In this document: positions 1-25,598 of the stretch, in pieces
How the letters are laid out: every line of letters begins with the position of its first letter
Numbering within the stretch: the first letter of the stretch is position 1
IMG/VR virus record: IMGVR_UViG_2606217107_000001
Origin: a virus
Lineage: Duplodnaviria; Heunggongvirae; Uroviricota; Caudoviricetes
DNA length: 25,598 nucleotides
Strand: one strand, 5' to 3'
Notes under the pieces: generated by a model
Told to the model about the DNA's origin: nothing
The model's database searches: none
The model's input: only the letters and a program-made list of their open reading frames with translations
Made by a program: the position numbers and the translations under genes

Positions 1-33
1 GGATCAGTTGACCGATCCAGTGGCTGTGTAAGA

Positions 34-67
34 ATCCGGAAACGCTCACTTGTTTCCGGATTTTTTT
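34..67 (+). promoter_or_regulatory. Perfect 10-bp stem-loop plus T-tract immediately upstream of the transposase ATG (terminator-like; likely blocks read-in transcription or translation)
   Basis: atccggaaac (34..43), loop gctcactt, gtttccggat (52..61), then tttttt (62..67) directly before ATG at 68. Repeated identically in copy 2 at 24248..24281. Confidence 0.5.
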
Positions 68-1396
68 ATGCACATTGGACAGGCTCTTGATCTGGTATCC
101 CGTTACGATTCTCTGCGTAACCCACTGACTTCTCTGGGGGATTACCTCGACCCCGAACTCATCTCTCGTTGCCTTGCCGAATCAGGTACTGTAACGCTAC
201 GCAAGCGCCGTCTTCCCCTCGAAATGATGGTCTGGTGTATTGTTGGCATGGCGCTTGAGCGTAAAGAACCTCTTCACCAGATTGTGAATCGCCTGGACAT
301 CATGCTGCCGGGCAATCGCCCCTTCGTTGCCCCCAGTGCCGTTATTCAGGCCCGCCAGCGCCTGGGAAGTGAGGCTGTCCGCCGCGTGTTCACGAAAACA
401 GCGCAGCTCTGGCATAACGCCACGCCGCATCCGCACTGGTGCGGCCTGACCCTGCTGGCCATCGATGGTGTGTTCTGGCGCACACCGGATACACCAGAGA
501 ACGATGCAGCCTTCCCCCGCCAGACACATGCCGGGAACCCGGCGCTCTACCCGCAGGTCAAAATGGTCTGCCAGATGGAACTGACCAGCCATCTGCTGAC
601 GGCTGCAGCCTTCGGCACGATGAAGAACAGCGAAAATGAGCTTGCTGAGCAACTTATAGAACAAACCGGCGATAACACTCTGACGTTAATGGACAAAGGT
701 TATTACTCACTGGGACTGTTAAATGCCTGGAGCCTGGCGGGAGAACACCGCCACTGGATGATACCTCTCAGAAAGGGAGCGCAATATGAAGAGATCAGAA
801 AACTGGGTAAAGGCGATCATCTGGTGAAGCTGAAAACCAGCCCGCAGGCACGAAAAAAGTGGCCGGGACTGGGAAATGAAGTGACTGCCCGCCTGCTGAC
901 CGTGACGCGCAAAGGAAAAGTCTGCCATCTGCTGACGTCGATGACGGACGCCATGCGCTTCCCCGGAGGAGAAATGGGGGATCTGTACAGTCATCGCTGG
1001 GAAATCGAACTGGGATACAGGGAGATAAAACAGACGATGCAACGGAGCAGGCTGACGCTGAGAAGTAAAAAGCCGGAGCTTGTGGAGCAAGAGCTGTGGG
1101 GTGTCTTACTGGCTTATAATCTGGTGAGATATCAGATGATTAAAATGGCGGAACATCTGAAAGGTTACTGGCCGAATCAACTGAGTTTCTCAGAATCATG
1201 CGGAATGGTGATGAGAATGCTGATGACATTGCAGGGCGCTTCACCGGGACGTATACCGGAGCTGATGCGCGATCTTGCAAGTATGGGACAACTTGTGAAA
1301 TTACCGACAAGAAGGGAAAGGGCCTTCCCGAGAGTGGTAAAGGAGAGGCCCTGGAAATACCCCACAGCCCCGAAAAAGAGCCAGTCAGTTGCTTAA
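68..1396 (+). CDS. insG: IS4 transposase (DDE family), 442 aa
   Basis: ORF 50..1396; protein from [20 protein letters not shown]... recognised as the E. coli IS4 transposase. Start placed at ATG 68 (MHIGQ), which gives 442 aa; the track start at 50 lies inside the upstream hairpin. Confidence 0.9.
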
Positions 1397-13412: not shown

Positions 13413-15707
13413 ATGAGCACAAAATTCAAAACCGTTATCACCACTGCCGGTGCAGCAAAGCTGGCAGCGGCAACCGCACCGGGAGGGCGGAAGGTCAACA
13501 TTACCACGATGGCCGTCGGGGATGGCGGTGGTAAATTGCCTGTCCCGGATGCCGGACAGACCGGGCTTATCCACGAAGTCTGGCGACATGCGCTGAACAA
13601 AATCAGTCAGGACAAACGAAACAGTAATTATATTATCGCAGAACTGGTTATTCCGCCGGAGGTGGGCGGTTTCTGGATGCGTGAGCTTGGCCTGTACGAT
13701 GATGCGGGAACATTAATTGCCGTGGCGAACATGGCCGAAAGTTATAAGCCAGCTCTTGCCGAAGGCTCAGGGCGTTCGCAGACCTGTCGCATGGTCATCA
13801 TCGTCAGCAGTGTGGCCTCAGTGGCGCTGACCATTGACACCACAACGGTGATGGCAACGCAGGATTACGTTGATGACAAAATTGCAGAGCATGAACAGTC
13901 ACGACGTCACCCGGACGCCTCGCTGACCGCAAAAGGTTTTACTCAGTTAAGCAATGCGACCAACAGCACGTCTGAAACACTGGCCGCAACGCCGAAAGCG
14001 GTAAAGGCCGCGTATGATCTTGCTAACGGGAAATACACTGCGCAGGATGCCACCACAGCGCGAAAAGGCCTTGTCCAGCTCAGTAGCGCCACCAACAGCA
14101 CGTCTGAAACGCTCGCCGCAACACCAAAAGCGGTAAAGGCAGCATATGACCTTGCTAACGGGAAATACACTGCACAGGACGCCACCACAGCGCGAAAAGG
14201 TCTTGTCCAGCTCAGTAGCGCCACCAACAGCGATTCTGAAACGCTTGCGGCAACGCCAAAGGCGGTTAAGACAGCGTATGACCTTGCTAACGGGAAATAC
14301 ACTGCACAGGACGCCACCACGGCGCGGAAAGGTCTTGTTCAGCTCAGTAGCGCCACCAACAGTGATTCTGAAACGCTGGCCGCAACATCAAAAGCGGTGA
14401 AGTCTGCCTATGACAATGCTGAAAAACGTCTTCAGAAAGATCAGAACGGTGCGGATATTCCGGGAAAGGATACCTTCACGAAAAATATCGGTGCCTGTCG
14501 TGCTTATAGCGGCGCTTTGAGCACTGAAGCCGGAAACTGGACAACCGCTCAGTTTATTGAATGGCTGGATTCCCGTGGTGCATTTAATCATCCGTACTGG
14601 ATGTGCAAAGGCTCCTGGTCATATGCAAATAACAAAATCATTACGGATACCGGATGTGGTGATATCCACCTGGCTGGTTGTGTCGTCGAGGTCATGGGAA
14701 CTAAATCTGCAATCACTATCCGAGTGACCACGCCGACAACATCAAGTGGTGGCGGTACAACCAGCGCGCAATTCACTTACATTAATCATGGGGACGGCTA
14801 CTCCCCCGGCTGGCGTCGTGACTGGAATCGTCAGGGCGACTCAATGACCGGAACGATTAATCAGGATGGCGGAAGCCAGAATGCCTATATGTCTACGGCC
14901 TTATGTTCAGGCACCAGAGGCGGCAAAAAATATCTCAGAAAGTTTCGTGGTGGAGAAGGAGACACTATCTGGCATGAAACAGTACAGGGCGGGGTAATTC
15001 GCTGGGCGACAGGAAACTATGACGCTCAGGAAGAATTATCACTCAGCTCCGCTTATGGTCTTCGTTCTAGAGGTGAAATTACATCACTCAGTGCTAATGG
15101 TCTGCGCATTGCTTATGGCAATTATGGATTCTTTATCAGGAATGATGGTGGCAGCACATATTTAATGCTGACGGCCTCTGGTGATAAATTTGGGACATGG
15201 AACGGTTTAAGGCCGCTGACTATCAATAACGCTAATGGCGGAGTGTCAATGGGGCATGGCCTGAGTGTTACTGGTGATATTGCCTCAAGTACCAAAGTAC
15301 GTGCCGGTAGCGGGAAAAAGTTCACGGTCAGCAGCAGCAATACATCCACGAAGGAAGCCGCATTCAATTTGTGGGGAAACTCAAGTCGTCCGGTGGTGGC
15401 TGAATTAGGTGATGATGCAGGCTGGCATTTTTACAGTCAGAGAAATACAGATAACAGCATCACTTTTGCTGTTAACGGTCAGGTATCACCATCTAACTAC
15501 AGTAATTTTGATTCACGTTATGTACGCGATATCCGGCTTGGGACTCGAGTTGTCCAGACCATGCAGAAAGGGGTGATGTATGAGAAAGCAGGGCACGTAA
15601 TTACCGGGCTTGGTATTGTCGGTGAAGTCGATGGTGATGACCCCGCAGTATTCAGACCAATACAAAAATACATCAATGGAACATGGTATAACGTCGCACA
15701 GGTGTAA
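13413..15707 (+). CDS. H: Tail fibre protein (P2 gpH-like) with expanded internal repeats and a divergent distal domain, 764 aa
   Basis: ORF 13413..15707; P2 H-like N-terminus (MSTKFKTVITTAGAAKLAAAT...). Contains ~3.6 tandem copies of a 44-aa unit. Longer than the ~669 aa I recall for P2 H; distal part is lower in GC. Confidence 0.9.
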   Translation: MSTKFKTVITTAGAAKLAAATAPGGRKVNITTMAVGDGGGKLPVPDAGQTGLIHEVWRHALNKISQDKRNSNYIIAELVIPPEVGGFWMRELGLYDDAGTLIAVANMAESYKPALAEGSGRSQTCRMVIIVSSVASVALTIDTTTVMATQDYVDDKIAEHEQSRRHPDASLTAKGFTQLSNATNSTSETLAATPKAVKAAYDLANGKYTAQDATTARKGLVQLSSATNSTSETLAATPKAVKAAYDLANGKYTAQDATTARKGLVQLSSATNSDSETLAATPKAVKTAYDLANGKYTAQDATTARKGLVQLSSATNSDSETLAATSKAVKSAYDNAEKRLQKDQNGADIPGKDTFTKNIGACRAYSGALSTEAGNWTTAQFIEWLDSRGAFNHPYWMCKGSWSYANNKIITDTGCGDIHLAGCVVEVMGTKSAITIRVTTPTTSSGGGTTSAQFTYINHGDGYSPGWRRDWNRQGDSMTGTINQDGGSQNAYMSTALCSGTRGGKKYLRKFRGGEGDTIWHETVQGGVIRWATGNYDAQEELSLSSAYGLRSRGEITSLSANGLRIAYGNYGFFIRNDGGSTYLMLTASGDKFGTWNGLRPLTINNANGGVSMGHGLSVTGDIASSTKVRAGSGKKFTVSSSNTSTKEAAFNLWGNSSRPVVAELGDDAGWHFYSQRNTDNSITFAVNGQVSPSNYSNFDSRYVRDIRLGTRVVQTMQKGVMYEKAGHVITGLGIVGEVDGDDPAVFRPIQKYINGTWYNVAQV
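13944..14417 (+). repeat. Tandem 132-bp in-frame coding repeat (~3.6 copies) inside tail fibre gene H
   Basis: gctaacggg recurs at 14022, 14154 and 14286 (period 132 bp); protein unit QLS(S/N)ATNS(T/D)SETLAATPKAVK(A/T)AYDLANGKYTAQDATTARKGLV repeats at residues ~178, 222, 266 and 310. Confidence 0.9.
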
Positions 15708-15710
15708 TTT

Positions 15711-16238
15711 ATGCAGCATTTAAAAAATATTACTGCGGGTAATCCAAAAACTGTTGCCCAATATCAACTGACAAAAAATTTTGATGTTATCTGGTTATGG
15801 TCCGAAGAGGGAAAAAACTGGTATGAGGAAGTAAGTAATTTTCAGGAAGACACGATAAAGATTGTTTACGACGAGAATAATATAATTGTCGGCATCACCA
15901 GAGATGCTTCAACGCTCAACCCTGAAGGTTATAGCGTTGTCGAGGTTCCTGATATTACCGCCAACCGACGTGCTGATGACTCAGGTAAATGGATGTTTAA
16001 GGATGGTGCCGTGATTAAGCGGATTTATACGGCAGACGAACAGCAACAACAGGCAGAATCACAAAAGGTCGCGTTACTTTCCGAAGCGGAAAGCGTTATT
16101 CAGCCACTGGAGCGCGCTGTCAGGCTGAACATGGCAACAGATGAGGAGCGTAGCCGACTGGAAGCATGGGAACGCTACAGTGTTCTGGTCAGCCGTGTGA
16201 ATCCTGCAAATCCTGAATGGCCGGAAATGCCGCAATAA
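15711..16238 (+). CDS. G: Tail fibre assembly chaperone (P2 gpG-like), 175 aa
   Basis: ORF 15711..16238; directly downstream of H; C-terminal part resembles the conserved tail fibre assembly domain. Confidence 0.85.
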
Positions 16239-16389
16239 GTTGTATGAGCTGACATATCTATAGCACAGAGTAAAGCCTAATCTGACAGTCTGCTCTGTGC
16301 AAGGAGCGGACATTACCTAACACATTGGTAACCTTCACAGATTTACGCGTTCTACATAGTTAGCATTGTATCTGATGAGTTATCATGTT

Positions 16390-17169
16390 TTAAAATATCC
16401 AACTGATAAATCCACCTGAATACTTTTCACTAATTTTGATTGCATAAAGATCATGAAGAGTTATAAATAAATCATTATCTTCTTTGAAAATTAACTCCTC
16501 ATATTCTGCCATTATCAAATTATGTTGTGTTGTTAGTTTAGATATGTTATCTATTTCACTGGCAAGCATGGATTTGTTTACATTGGTGTGTGGATCCATG
16601 GCAATATATTTCCGCATCAATGGAATTAGTTGATTAGGGTCTATATTTTTTGCATTTTCCTTTGCTTTTTTTTGTCTTTCTGAATAGATGGAGTTAATTG
16701 TGTTAGTGTGTTTTTTCGCCAGTCTCTTAAACTCTGGATATGAACCAGTAACTAATGCAAGCTCTTCGTACTTAAGGAACAAATCGATATTGCATTTTTT
16801 TACCGTTATTTCAAGATCTTCAACTCTTTTTTTTAACTCTTCATTTGTTTTAATAAGAGACATCGGGAGAACTTCATAATGTTGTCCTAATTCTGAATCA
16901 GGGCTCATTGCCATATGTACTATTTCATTATACATGAGCTGATAAGAAGCAGATAACTCTCCATACTTTAGAAATAGTTCATTGTGTGAAGATGAACAAG
17001 AACTTTGTAATTTCATCATTGGTCTAAAGTAATCCTTTATAAACTCCTCCTGAAGATCTTGGTCTTTTTTGTAGCTCTCTAGGATTCCAGCAAAAAGAAA
17101 TGATCCTAAAGATATAGAGATTATGGATATTAGCAATTGACTAAGGAATGATTGTGTTTCATTACTCAT
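16390..17169 (-). CDS. Hypothetical membrane-anchored protein encoded by an AT-rich insert at the Z/fun position; candidate exclusion or defence gene, 259 aa
   Basis: ORF 16390..17169 minus; AGGA ribosome-binding site 6 nt before the ATG; N-terminal hydrophobic helix (FLSQLLISIISISLGSFLFAGIL); internally repeated LFLKY(G/E)EL motif; region is far lower in GC than its flanks; opposite strand to the late operons. Function not recognised. Confidence 0.7.
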   Translation of the reverse strand: MSNETQSFLSQLLISIISISLGSFLFAGILESYKKDQDLQEEFIKDYFRPMMKLQSSCSSSHNELFLKYGELSASYQLMYNEIVHMAMSPDSELGQHYEVLPMSLIKTNEELKKRVEDLEITVKKCNIDLFLKYEELALVTGSYPEFKRLAKKHTNTINSIYSERQKKAKENAKNIDPNQLIPLMRKYIAMDPHTNVNKSMLASEIDNISKLTTQHNLIMAEYEELIFKEDNDLFITLHDLYAIKISEKYSGGFISWIF

Positions 17170-17446
17170 AAAACATCCTTAAAAAATAACACGAAAAGTG
17201 ACTCCTGACAGGGAAGAAACGACAGGTCGGAAACAAACTTAACTGATGAGTTAGCCGTAGTCCAGAACCTTGTTTGAACACTTAGTGTGACTGTTTGCAT
17301 CTCAGGAATTTGTGCCAATAACATTTGAATCCTTATAATTTATTTAAATCAAATTTAGTTACTCGCTCAAAGCAGGCTGTCAGATTTGATAGCATTTGGG
17401 CTATGTAAATTGTCAGGCGGAAAATGAGTGAGTACAAATCAAGACT

Positions 17447-23872: not shown

Positions 23873-23953
23873 TGTTTTTGTTTTATCTGTTTGTTTTATA
23901 AGGATAAATTAACTAAAATGGCACCATCAACAAAACCGGAAGAGGTGCTCGCG
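23873..23953 (+). promoter_or_regulatory. AT-rich region upstream of ogr, presumably its own promoter
   Basis: 81-bp AT-rich gap before the ogr start; motif not resolved. Confidence 0.3.
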
Positions 23954-24172
23954 ATGTTTCATTGTCCTTTATGCCAGCATGCCGCACATGCGCGTACAAG
24001 TCGCTATATCACTGACACGACAAAAGAGCGTTATCACCAGTGTCAGAACGTGAATTGCAGCGCCACATTCATCACTTATGAGTCGGTACAGCGATATATC
24101 GTGAAGCCGGGAGAAGTCCACGCCGTAAGGCCGCACCCGTTGCCGTCAGGGCAGCAAATTATGTGGATGTGA
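23954..24172 (+). CDS. ogr: Late transcription activator Ogr (zinc-finger), 72 aa
   Basis: Inside ORF 23891..24172; start at ATG 23954 (MFHCPLCQHAAHARTSRY...), GAGG at 23942..23945; four cysteines (CPLC ... CQNVNC). Confidence 0.9.
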   Translation: MFHCPLCQHAAHARTSRYITDTTKERYHQCQNVNCSATFITYESVQRYIVKPGEVHAVRPHPLPSGQQIMWM

Positions 24173-24197: not shown

Positions 24198-24215
24198 TAA
24201 TGCCGATCAGTTAAG
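24198..24215. repeat. IS4 left terminal inverted repeat (copy 2)
   Basis: taatgccgatcagttaag; imperfect inverse of 1392..1409. Confidence 0.8.
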
Positions 24216-24281
24216 GATCAGTTGACCGATCCAGTGGCTGTGTAAGAATCCGGAAACGCTCACTTGTTTCCGGATTTTTTT

Positions 24282-25598
24282 ATGCACATTGGACAGGCTC
24301 TTGATCTGGTATCCCGTTACGATTCTCTGCGTAACCCACTGACTTCTCTGGGGGATTACCTCGACCCCGAACTCATCTCTCGTTGCCTTGCCGAATCAGG
24401 TACTGTAACGCTACGCAAGCGCCGTCTTCCCCTCGAAATGATGGTCTGGTGTATTGTTGGCATGGCGCTTGAGCGTAAAGAACCTCTTCACCAGATTGTG
24501 AATCGCCTGGACATCATGCTGCCGGGCAATCGCCCCTTCGTTGCCCCCAGTGCCGTTATTCAGGCCCGCCAGCGCCTGGGAAGTGAGGCTGTCCGCCGCG
24601 TGTTCACGAAAACAGCGCAGCTCTGGCATAACGCCACGCCGCATCCGCACTGGTGCGGCCTGACCCTGCTGGCCATCGATGGTGTGTTCTGGCGCACACC
24701 GGATACACCAGAGAACGATGCAGCCTTCCCCCGCCAGACACATGCCGGGAACCCGGCGCTCTACCCGCAGGTCAAAATGGTCTGCCAGATGGAACTGACC
24801 AGCCATCTGCTGACGGCTGCAGCCTTCGGCACGATGAAGAACAGCGAAAATGAGCTTGCTGAGCAACTTATAGAACAAACCGGCGATAACACTCTGACGT
24901 TAATGGACAAAGGTTATTACTCACTGGGACTGTTAAATGCCTGGAGCCTGGCGGGAGAACACCGCCACTGGATGATACCTCTCAGAAAGGGAGCGCAATA
25001 TGAAGAGATCAGAAAACTGGGTAAAGGCGATCATCTGGTGAAGCTGAAAACCAGCCCGCAGGCACGAAAAAAGTGGCCGGGACTGGGAAATGAAGTGACT
25101 GCCCGCCTGCTGACCGTGACGCGCAAAGGAAAAGTCTGCCATCTGCTGACGTCGATGACGGACGCCATGCGCTTCCCCGGAGGAGAAATGGGGGATCTGT
25201 ACAGTCATCGCTGGGAAATCGAACTGGGATACAGGGAGATAAAACAGACGATGCAACGGAGCAGGCTGACGCTGAGAAGTAAAAAGCCGGAGCTTGTGGA
25301 GCAAGAGCTGTGGGGTGTCTTACTGGCTTATAATCTGGTGAGATATCAGATGATTAAAATGGCGGAACATCTGAAAGGTTACTGGCCGAATCAACTGAGT
25401 TTCTCAGAATCATGCGGAATGGTGATGAGAATGCTGATGACATTGCAGGGCGCTTCACCGGGACGTATACCGGAGCTGATGCGCGATCTTGCAAGTATGG
25501 GACAACTTGTGAAATTACCGACAAGAAGGGAAAGGGCCTTCCCGAGAGTGGTAAAGGAGAGGCCCTGGAAATACCCCACAGCCCCGAAAAAGAGCCAG
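24282..25598 (+). CDS. insG: IS4 transposase, second copy (partial; C-terminal ~4 codons and stop outside the window)
   Basis: Same reading frame and sequence as 68..1396, shifted by 24214 bp; runs off the window end. Confidence 0.88.

What the first reader, a model, noticed from the sequence alone, without database searches (positions are those of the whole stretch)
13944..14417. Tail fibre gene H has an expanded 132-bp in-frame tandem repeat
About 3.6 nearly identical copies of a 44-aa unit sit in the proximal shaft of H. The copies are almost identical at the DNA level, which suggests recent expansion by slipped or unequal recombination. H is 764 aa here against the ~669 aa I recall for P2 H; much of the excess is accounted for by the extra repeat units. 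Repeat number would change fibre length and is a likely source of strain-to-strain variation. The repeat also creates a spurious 125-aa antisense ORF (13943..14320).
Basis: seen in the sequence. Interest (0 to 1): 0.4.

Follow-up and report, generated by a model that had tools for sequence, protein, structure and literature searches.

The report
Old structural repeat in P2-type tail fibre
The 132-bp tandem repeat in tail fibre gene H is real, but it is the well-known "phage tail fibre repeat" in its commonest four-unit arrangement, shared unit for unit with many P2-like phages. It is not a recent expansion in this genome.

Summary
A 132-bp, in-frame tandem array lies at 13932-14415 in a 764-aa P2-type H gene: three full 44-aa units plus a fourth that keeps its first 25-29 residues.

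The units are near-identical as protein (39-42 of 44 residues) but only 80-90% identical as DNA. 43 of 59 differences fall at third codon positions, with dS 0.36-0.92 and dN 0.04-0.09. Each unit is 94-100% identical to the unit at the same position in other peduoviruses. So the duplications predate the divergence of these phages, whose N-terminal domains differ by dS 0.04-0.10.

The units are Pfam PF03406 (Phage_fiber_2; 4 hits, 253 bits). In 79 IMG/VR relatives chosen only by the N-terminal domain, the window's 1-2-3-T layout is the commonest (38/79). Counts were 2 units (13 contigs), 3 (2), 4 (50) and 5 (14). Six units occur in the protein database.

Copy number therefore does vary between strains, and a few other arrays hold 99-100% identical neighbouring units. 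P2 H (669 aa) has two units, so 88 of the 95 extra residues here are repeat units. The 125-aa antisense ORF exists but is not conserved. This is an ordinary, already known feature.

The parts
13413..15707 (+). Tail fibre gene H (764 aa), a mosaic: P2-type N-terminal domain, repeat array, then a distal part like Mu S/S' and T4 gp34
   Evidence: ORF. Pfam PF12571 (residues 1-151), PF03406 x4 and PF21446 (541-604). PDB sequence matches to Mu tail fibre S (8ju3 3e-93, 5yvq 6e-64) and T4 gp34. 97.8% identical over the full length, and the same length, as Yersinia phage vB_YpM_46 H.
13413..13931 (+). N-terminal domain of H (aa 1-173), inferred to attach the fibre to the baseplate
   Evidence: PF12571 Phage_tail_fib, E 2.5e-58. 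dS 0.04-0.10 against P2, Wphi, YpM46 and fiAA91. The attachment role is inferred from what is known of P2 and Mu fibres.
13932..14063 (+). Repeat unit 1 (type 1): KGFTQLSNATNSTSETLAATPKAVKAAYDLANGKYTAQDATTAR
   Evidence: 91-97% identical to unit 1 of 13 other phages and prophages, but only 85% and 80% to its own units 2 and 3.
14064..14195 (+). Repeat unit 2 (type 2)
   Evidence: 94-100% identical to unit 2 of LR-71-1, YZ22PE244, P2DC1, P37, YpM46, P2_2H4, PMV-1, 12474III and UTAK-3, against 90% to its own unit 3.
14196..14327 (+). Repeat unit 3 (type 3, carries NSDSE)
   Evidence: 92-98% identical to the type-3 units of UTAK-3, STW0522, LR-71-1, 12474III, fiAA91, P2DC1, P2_2H4 and YpM46.
14328..14459 (+). 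Terminal unit (T). The first 25-29 residues match the unit, then it runs into AYDNAEKRLQKDQNGADI, the start of the Mu S-like distal part
   Evidence: This is the fourth PF03406 stretch. It aligns with the single unit of Mu S, chain residues 99-179.
14460..15707 (+). Distal shaft and receptor-binding part, Mu S/S'-like with a gp34-type trimerisation domain
   Evidence: query 334-487 and 548-763; PF21446.
15711..16238 (+). Tail fibre assembly (chaperone) gene G
   Evidence: PF02413 Caudo_TAP, E 2.9e-35.
13943..14320 (-). 125-aa antisense ORF, a by-product of the repeat and judged not to be a gene
   Evidence: Listed. In 18 relatives the stop-free antisense stretch starts and ends at different places, and a second antisense frame is often open as well.

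Best explanation
The array is a set of four Phage_fiber_2 (PF03406) structural repeats in the proximal shaft of a P2-type tail fibre. It sits between the N-terminal domain (inferred to attach to the baseplate) and a Mu S-like distal, receptor-binding part.

The units arose by old tandem duplications and are held by purifying selection on the protein. Each has since diverged at silent sites, so positions 1, 2, 3 and terminal are recognisable unit types shared across peduoviruses. The window carries the commonest arrangement, 1-2-3-T.

Across the phage population, in-register unequal recombination or gene conversion between units sometimes adds, removes or overwrites one 132-bp unit. This yields fibres with 2 to 6 units. 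It presumably changes shaft length by one 44-residue module per chain of the (presumed) trimeric fibre.

Shown: the repeat, its family, unit orthology, copy-number variation and mosaic breakpoints.
Inferred: the trimeric shaft role, the effect on length, and the recombination mechanism.
For: - Repeat and reading frame.
- Family: PF03406 with 4 stretches, 253 bits against a cut-off of 22. Flanked by PF12571 and a Caudo_TAP gene.
- Silent divergence: 43 of 59 differences between units are at third codon positions, with 43 transitions and 16 transversions.
- Rates: dS 0.36-0.92 and dN 0.04-0.09 between units. The N-terminal domain differs from most relatives by only dS 0.04-0.10.
- Positional orthology: each window unit is 94-100% identical to the same-position unit elsewhere, against 80-90% to its neighbours. 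Units cluster by type, not by genome. In 38 IMG/VR 1-2-3-T arrays the mean same-position identity is 0.946-0.964, against 0.81-0.90 for other positions.
- Copy number: 2-6 among the 120 best database proteins, always spaced 44 aa. Among 79 IMG/VR relatives chosen by N-terminal domain alone: 2 units (13), 3 (2), 4 (50), 5 (14).
- Gain and loss of single units: P37, PMV-1 and YZ22PE244 lack type 3, while STW0522 and fiAA91 lack type 2. A 5-unit array reads 1-2-3-3-T and a 6-unit array 1-2-3-2-3-T.
- Recent events elsewhere: neighbouring units are 99-100% identical in L036, L093 and L061 and in L018.
- Closest E. coli prophages: of the 40 rows listed, 32 are the same length and 6 are exactly 132 bp shorter.
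Against: - No solved or confident predicted structure of the unit was obtained. The AF2 monomer model had pLDDT 44. The only PDB chains whose sequence contains the unit are Mu S entries, and the paper read says only the N-terminus of gp49 was built, without giving its extent. The shaft role and the length effect are therefore inferred.
- Unit types were assigned by nearest window unit. 1-3-3-T versus 1-2-3-T calls at 90-94% identity are soft.
- Some database copy numbers come from draft assemblies, which can collapse or inflate repeats.
- Traces of shared variants between units of the same phage show that some concerted evolution occurs, so 'old' is relative.
Confidence: 0.85

Rival explanations
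1. Recent, ongoing expansion in this genome. Slipped-strand or unequal recombination lately added units, so this strain's H gene is an unusual long allele.
For: - Copy number does vary in the family.
- A few other arrays contain 99-100% identical neighbouring units.
- P2 itself has only 2 units.
Against: - The window's units are only 80-90% identical, with dS 0.36-0.92.
- Each unit has a 94-100% identical positional counterpart in other phages.
- The 1-2-3-T layout is the commonest allele (38/79).
- The same layout occurs at the same length in vB_YpM_46 and in most of the closest E. coli prophages.
Confidence: 0.04
2. The array mainly serves as a recombination adaptor. The conserved half-unit (to ...AATPKAVK) offers a stretch of homology at which different distal receptor-binding modules are joined to the conserved N-terminal domain. 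Unit number would be a by-product of such exchanges.
For: - Similarity to relatives ends at gene positions 594, 726 and 860. These are about 75 nt into units 1, 2 and 3.
- Distal modules of different kinds (TVMDETNK.., SAYDNAEK.., AANDNANGR..) all start right after KAVK.
- P37 has a very different N-terminal domain (dS 1.6) but 92-98% identical units.
- Mu S carries one such unit at the matching place.
Against: - Breakpoints also lie well outside the array, at about 264, 1050 and 1120-1190.
- Strong purifying selection on all 44 residues of every unit (dN/dS about 0.1) points to a structural role for the protein itself.
- The two roles are not mutually exclusive.
Confidence: 0.3
3. A template/variable repeat pair of a diversity-generating retroelement, or another programmed variation cassette acting on the fibre.
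For: The repeats are about 130 bp long and lie in a tail fibre gene.
Against: - The units are tandem and in frame in the proximal shaft, not at the C-terminal receptor-binding tip.
- Differences are mostly silent third-position transitions with no bias to adenine.
- The window ORFs I scanned against Pfam (H, G, I, J, the 16390-17169 ORF, the IS4 transposase, ogr, portal, sheath) include no reverse transcriptase, and the remaining ORFs follow the P2 late-gene order. I did not scan every ORF.
Confidence: 0.01

Closest known systems
Pfam PF03406 Phage_fiber_2, the 'phage tail fibre repeat' first noted in lambda Stf and found in many prophage side tail fibres
   Same: Four matches covering the whole profile, 253 bits. 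A repeat of about 42-44 residues in a tail fibre protein. According to PMC3368898, the domain was first identified in lambda Stf and little is known of its structure and function.
   Different: Nothing essential differs. Here the units are strictly tandem with a 44-residue period, in a myovirus (P2-type) fibre.
Bacteriophage P2 gpH (NC_001895, 669 aa) and other Peduovirus H proteins
   Same: Same gene order J-I-H-G. The N-terminal domain and first unit are about 94-97% identical at the DNA level.
   Different: P2 has 2 units (1-T) joined to a different distal module, TVMDETNK... The window has 4 units joined to a Mu S-like module. After gene position about 726 the two are unrelated at the DNA level.
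Yersinia phage vB_YpM_46 H (NC_055845) and E. coli prophage alleles such as strain LR-71-1
   Same: Same length (2295 bp), the same 1-2-3-T array, and 97.8-98.8% identity over the whole gene.
   Different: Only point differences.
Mu tail fibre protein S/S' (PDB 5yvq, 8ju3, 9ki1)
   Same: The window's terminal unit and most of the distal part match Mu S and S' (E 3e-93 and 6e-64). Mu S contains one Phage_fiber_2 unit.
   Different: Mu S has one unit and a different N-terminal domain. The window has four units on a P2-type N-terminus.

Membership tests
Pfam PF03406 Phage_fiber_2 repeat | Score above the curated gathering threshold of the family profile | tested here: met
   253 bits against a cut-off of 22, E 8.2e-77, 4 stretches. 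The best stretch covers profile positions 1-41 of 42.
Pfam PF03406 Phage_fiber_2 repeat | Occurs within a phage tail fibre protein | tested here: met
   PF12571 N-terminal tail fibre domain in the same ORF. Caudo_TAP chaperone gene immediately downstream. Baseplate J and I genes upstream.
Peduovirus (P2-type) tail fibre gpH | N-terminal domain homologous to P2 gpH, and gene order V-W-J-I-H-G | tested here: met
   DNA identity of 95-98% with P2 over the N-terminal domain. The order J, I, H, G was confirmed by Pfam in the window. V and W were placed only by matching ORF positions to the annotated P2 region.
Peduovirus (P2-type) tail fibre gpH | Distal part homologous to that of P2 gpH | tested here: not met
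   Identity falls to 30-50% after gene position about 726. Only the last ~70 nt recover, to 92%. The distal part matches Mu S/S' instead.
Recently expanded tandem repeat (VNTR-like) | Units near-identical at the DNA level (about 97-100%) | tested here: not met
   80.3-90.2% identity and dS 0.36-0.92.
Recently expanded tandem repeat (VNTR-like) | Copy number differs among close relatives | tested here: met
   2-5 units among 79 contigs with 98-100% identical N-terminal domains. One-unit differences occur among E. coli prophage alleles that are 94-96% identical.
Diversity-generating retroelement target | Adenine-specific differences between repeats | tested here: not met
   No adenine bias, and 43 of 59 differences are at third codon positions.
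Diversity-generating retroelement target | Reverse transcriptase gene nearby | tested here: inconclusive
   None among the nine window ORFs scanned against Pfam, and the other ORFs follow the P2 late-gene order. Not every ORF was scanned.
Trimeric fibre shaft module | The unit forms part of a trimeric shaft and adds a fixed rise per unit | not testable with these tools
   Only monomer prediction is available, and it gave pLDDT 44. I found no PDB entry known to resolve the unit.

The most novel reading that the evidence does not exclude
Unit number is not neutral. It is tuned together with the distal module, so that total fibre reach suits the receptor, and single-unit gain or loss is a fast adaptive switch. 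Two hints: unit number and distal-part length are negatively correlated in 75 IMG/VR alleles (Spearman -0.42, not corrected for relatedness), and five-unit arrays mostly sit on the short 337-residue distal module. A few arrays also show 99-100% identical neighbouring units, as expected from recent events.
Probability: 0.12. Interest if true: 0.4.

Novelty: already known. Interest (0 to 1): 0.12.

Why it matters
It matters little as a discovery. The repeat is a curated Pfam family, and this exact allele is present in sequenced phages and in many E. coli prophages.

The practical points are:
- The unit count can be trusted here, because 80-90% identical units are resolvable by short reads.
- P2 is a poor length reference, because its H gene is a different mosaic allele.
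- Anyone engineering or typing P2-type fibres should expect alleles with 2 to 6 shaft units. Unit types 1, 2, 3 and T can serve as markers of recombination history.

Tried and rejected
- AlphaFold2 monomer model of residues 140-400 with a 49-sequence alignment: mean pLDDT 44, pTM 0.22, all-helical. It was not usable, so I ran no fold search.
- PDB sequence search with two units alone: only Mu S entries match. The Mu in-situ paper says only the N-terminus of gp49 was built, without giving its extent. The unit's fold stays unknown to me.
- Literature search for earlier descriptions of unit-number variation in P2 H: nothing specific in the papers held. Haggard-Ljungquist 1992 and Christie & Calendar 2016 are not in the library.
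- DGR reading: rejected on the substitution pattern.
- First motif regexes for counting units failed and were rewritten.
- PADLOC and Pfam gave nothing for the AT-rich ORF next to G.

Full report
**1. The observation**

Tandem Repeats Finder reports one strong array in the window: 13959-14414, period 132, 3.5 copies, 89% matches, no indels, score 695. The repeat finder independently gives three in-register copies starting at 13931, 14063 and 14195.

The array lies inside the 764-aa ORF 13413-15707 on the + strand. 132 is a multiple of three, so the repeat is in frame. Cut on codon boundaries, the units are 13932-14063, 14064-14195 and 14196-14327. A fourth unit from 14328 keeps the unit sequence for about 29 residues, then continues as AYDNAEKRLQKDQNGADI.

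The 125-aa antisense ORF at 13943-14320 is also there.

**2. What was wrong in the description**

The units are near-identical only as protein: 41, 39 and 42 of 44 residues for pairs 1-2, 1-3 and 2-3. As DNA they are 84.8%, 80.3% and 90.2% identical.
- Of the 59 pairwise differences among the three full units, 43 are at third codon positions. 43 are transitions and 16 are transversions.
- Nei-Gojobori estimates between units are dS 0.36-0.92 and dN 0.04-0.09, so dN/dS is about 0.1.
- This is the signature of old duplicates kept by purifying selection on the protein, not of a fresh expansion.

**3. What the gene and the unit are**

Pfam places three families on the protein:
- PF12571 (tail-collar fibre N-terminal domain) at residues 1-151.
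- PF03406 Phage_fiber_2, the "phage tail fibre repeat", four times (E 8.2e-77, 253 bits against a cut-off of 22).
- PF21446 (gp34-type trimerisation domain) at residues 541-604.

The neighbours are baseplate J, tail protein I and, downstream, a Caudo_TAP fibre assembly protein. This is the P2 J-I-H-G arrangement.

Against PDB sequences, residues 288-487 and 548-763 match phage Mu tail fibre S/S' (8ju3 3e-93, 5yvq 6e-64). Residues 550-624 match T4 gp34. Mu S carries a single Phage_fiber_2 unit, which aligns with the window's terminal unit.

So H here is a mosaic of a P2-type N-terminal domain, four shaft repeats and a Mu S-like distal part. PMC3368898 notes that the Pf2 domain was first identified in lambda Stf and that little is known of its structure and function.

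**4. Comparison with relatives: unit by unit**

I fetched H from 15 annotated phages and E. coli prophages and three further alleles with five or six units.
- Each window unit is most similar to the unit at the same position in other genomes. Unit 1 is 91-97% identical, unit 2 94-100%, unit 3 92-98% and the terminal unit 91-98%. All of these exceed the identity to the window's own neighbouring units.
- Clustering of 43 full units gives three groups that follow position, not genome.
- The N-terminal domain of the same genes differs from the window by only dS 0.04-0.10 for P2, Wphi, YpM46, fiAA91, P2DC1, PMV-1 and others. The duplications are therefore several-fold older than the split between these phages.
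- vB_YpM_46 has the same 2295-bp gene at 97.8% identity. Among the 40 best complete E. coli genomes listed, 32 have the same length, 6 are exactly 132 bp shorter and 2 match only part of the gene.

**5. Is copy number variable?**

Yes, across the family.
- Among the 120 best of 6994 database homologues, the unit motif occurs 2 to 6 times, always 44 residues apart.
- That list is ranked by score, so I took a second sample chosen only by the N-terminal domain: 80 IMG/VR contigs with 98-100% identical domains.
- Of 79 arrays fully contained, 13 have 2 units, 2 have 3, 50 have 4 and 14 have 5.
- The commonest layout is 1-2-3-T (38 of 79), which is the window's.
- Other layouts are 1-T (P2 type, 13), 1-3-3-T (8), 1-2-3-3-T (9), 1-2-2-T (4) and 1-2-2-3-T (4).

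Three-unit alleles are of two kinds. P37, PMV-1 and YZ22PE244 lack type 3, while STW0522 and fiAA91 lack type 2. This implies independent one-unit events. A six-unit allele reads 1-2-3-2-3-T.

A few arrays hold neighbouring units that are 99-100% identical: L036, L093 and L061. An unrelated prophage fibre (L018) has four units that are 98-100% identical. Recent duplication or conversion does therefore happen, just not in this window.

**6. P2 as a length reference**

P2 H is 669 aa and has one full unit plus the terminal one. However, the two genes are unrelated at the DNA level after gene position about 726. The similar length of the two distal parts (427 and 434 residues) is therefore a coincidence between different modules.

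**7. Mosaic junctions**

Similarity to various relatives stops at gene positions 594, 726 and 860, each about 75 nt into units 1, 2 and 3, just after ...AATPKAVK. Different distal modules all begin there.

P37 has a strongly diverged N-terminal domain (dS 1.6) but 92-98% identical units. The array is thus one of the places where fibre modules are joined. Other breakpoints lie at about 264, 1050 and 1120-1190. I therefore treat the adaptor role as a secondary, non-exclusive reading.

**8. Antisense ORF**

In 18 relatives, the stop-free antisense stretch that gives the 125-aa ORF begins and ends at different positions or is split. A second antisense frame is also open across the array in many of them. 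Its third codon positions coincide with those of H, which is the antisense frame most often open by chance.

**9. Rejected readings**

A diversity-generating retroelement is excluded by the tandem in-frame layout and by the absence of any adenine bias. I saw no reverse transcriptase among the ORFs I scanned, though I did not scan every ORF.

A structure prediction of residues 140-400 as a monomer was of no use, with pLDDT 44. The fold of the unit and its rise per unit remain inferred.

**10. Verdict**

The repeat is real and correctly located, but it is a known family in its commonest arrangement, shared unit for unit with sequenced phages. The idea of strain-to-strain variation in unit number holds for the family. 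The idea of recent expansion in this genome does not. Interest is low.

One loose hint may deserve a proper test. Unit number and distal length are negatively correlated in 75 alleles (Spearman -0.42, p 1.6e-4). This is uncorrected for relatedness, so it is only suggestive.

Noticed in passing
window 1-1384 and 24215-25598: The two ends of the window are exactly identical over 1384 bp. They encode an IS4-family transposase (PF13006 + PF01609, ORF 50-1396). The P2 late region (Q...ogr) is therefore bracketed by two direct IS4 copies, or the window is a 24,214-bp circular path wrapped around. The ogr|IS4 junction exists in complete E. coli genomes next to fieF/pfkA. One example is NZ_AP045810, which has no IS4 upstream of Q. 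The int/C/cox/B/A early genes are not in the window.
   Followed up: partly
window 16200-17400, ORF 16390-17169 (-): An AT-rich island (GC 0.34 against 0.55-0.58) lies between G and FI, the position of Z/fun in P2. Its 259-aa ORF has no Pfam or PADLOC match and belongs to phrog_7729, of unknown function. Thirteen complete E. coli genomes carry the island over at least 80% of its length, and the twelve listed are 98-99% identical. Other relatives carry quite different genes at this spot, including an annotated SMEK domain-containing protein.
   Followed up: partly
L018 3001-4824 (E. coli OZ040295.1): A different prophage fibre of 607 aa has four Phage_fiber_2 units that are 98-100% identical at the DNA level. 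It has a Collar domain, and a resolvase/invertase gene lies downstream. This is a true case of recent expansion or homogenisation, for contrast.
   Followed up: partly
L036, L093, L061 (IMG/VR contigs): These close relatives of the window's H have neighbouring units that are 99-100% identical (layouts 1-3-3-T, 1-2-2-3-T and 1-2-3-3-T). This shows recent unit duplication or gene conversion in the population.
   Followed up: partly
L003 (phage P37), L013 and L015 (E. coli STW0522-31, UTAK-3), H gene positions 1-520: The N-terminal domain of H is itself mosaic. In P37 it is 68-85% identical over the whole domain. In STW0522-31 and UTAK-3 it is 67-83% identical over only the first ~264 nt. The rest of the gene is 95-100% identical to the window in all three.
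   Followed up: partly
IMG/VR loci L020-L099: Unit number and the length of the distal part of H are negatively correlated (Spearman -0.42, p 1.6e-4, n = 75). Five-unit arrays mostly sit on a short 337-residue distal module. This is not corrected for shared ancestry.
   Followed up: no
window 23891-24172 (+): The listed 93-aa TTG ORF is the Ogr/Delta zinc-finger late activator. PF04606 covers residues 24-70. The annotated ogrK in a relative is 219 bp, so the true start is probably an internal codon.
   Followed up: no
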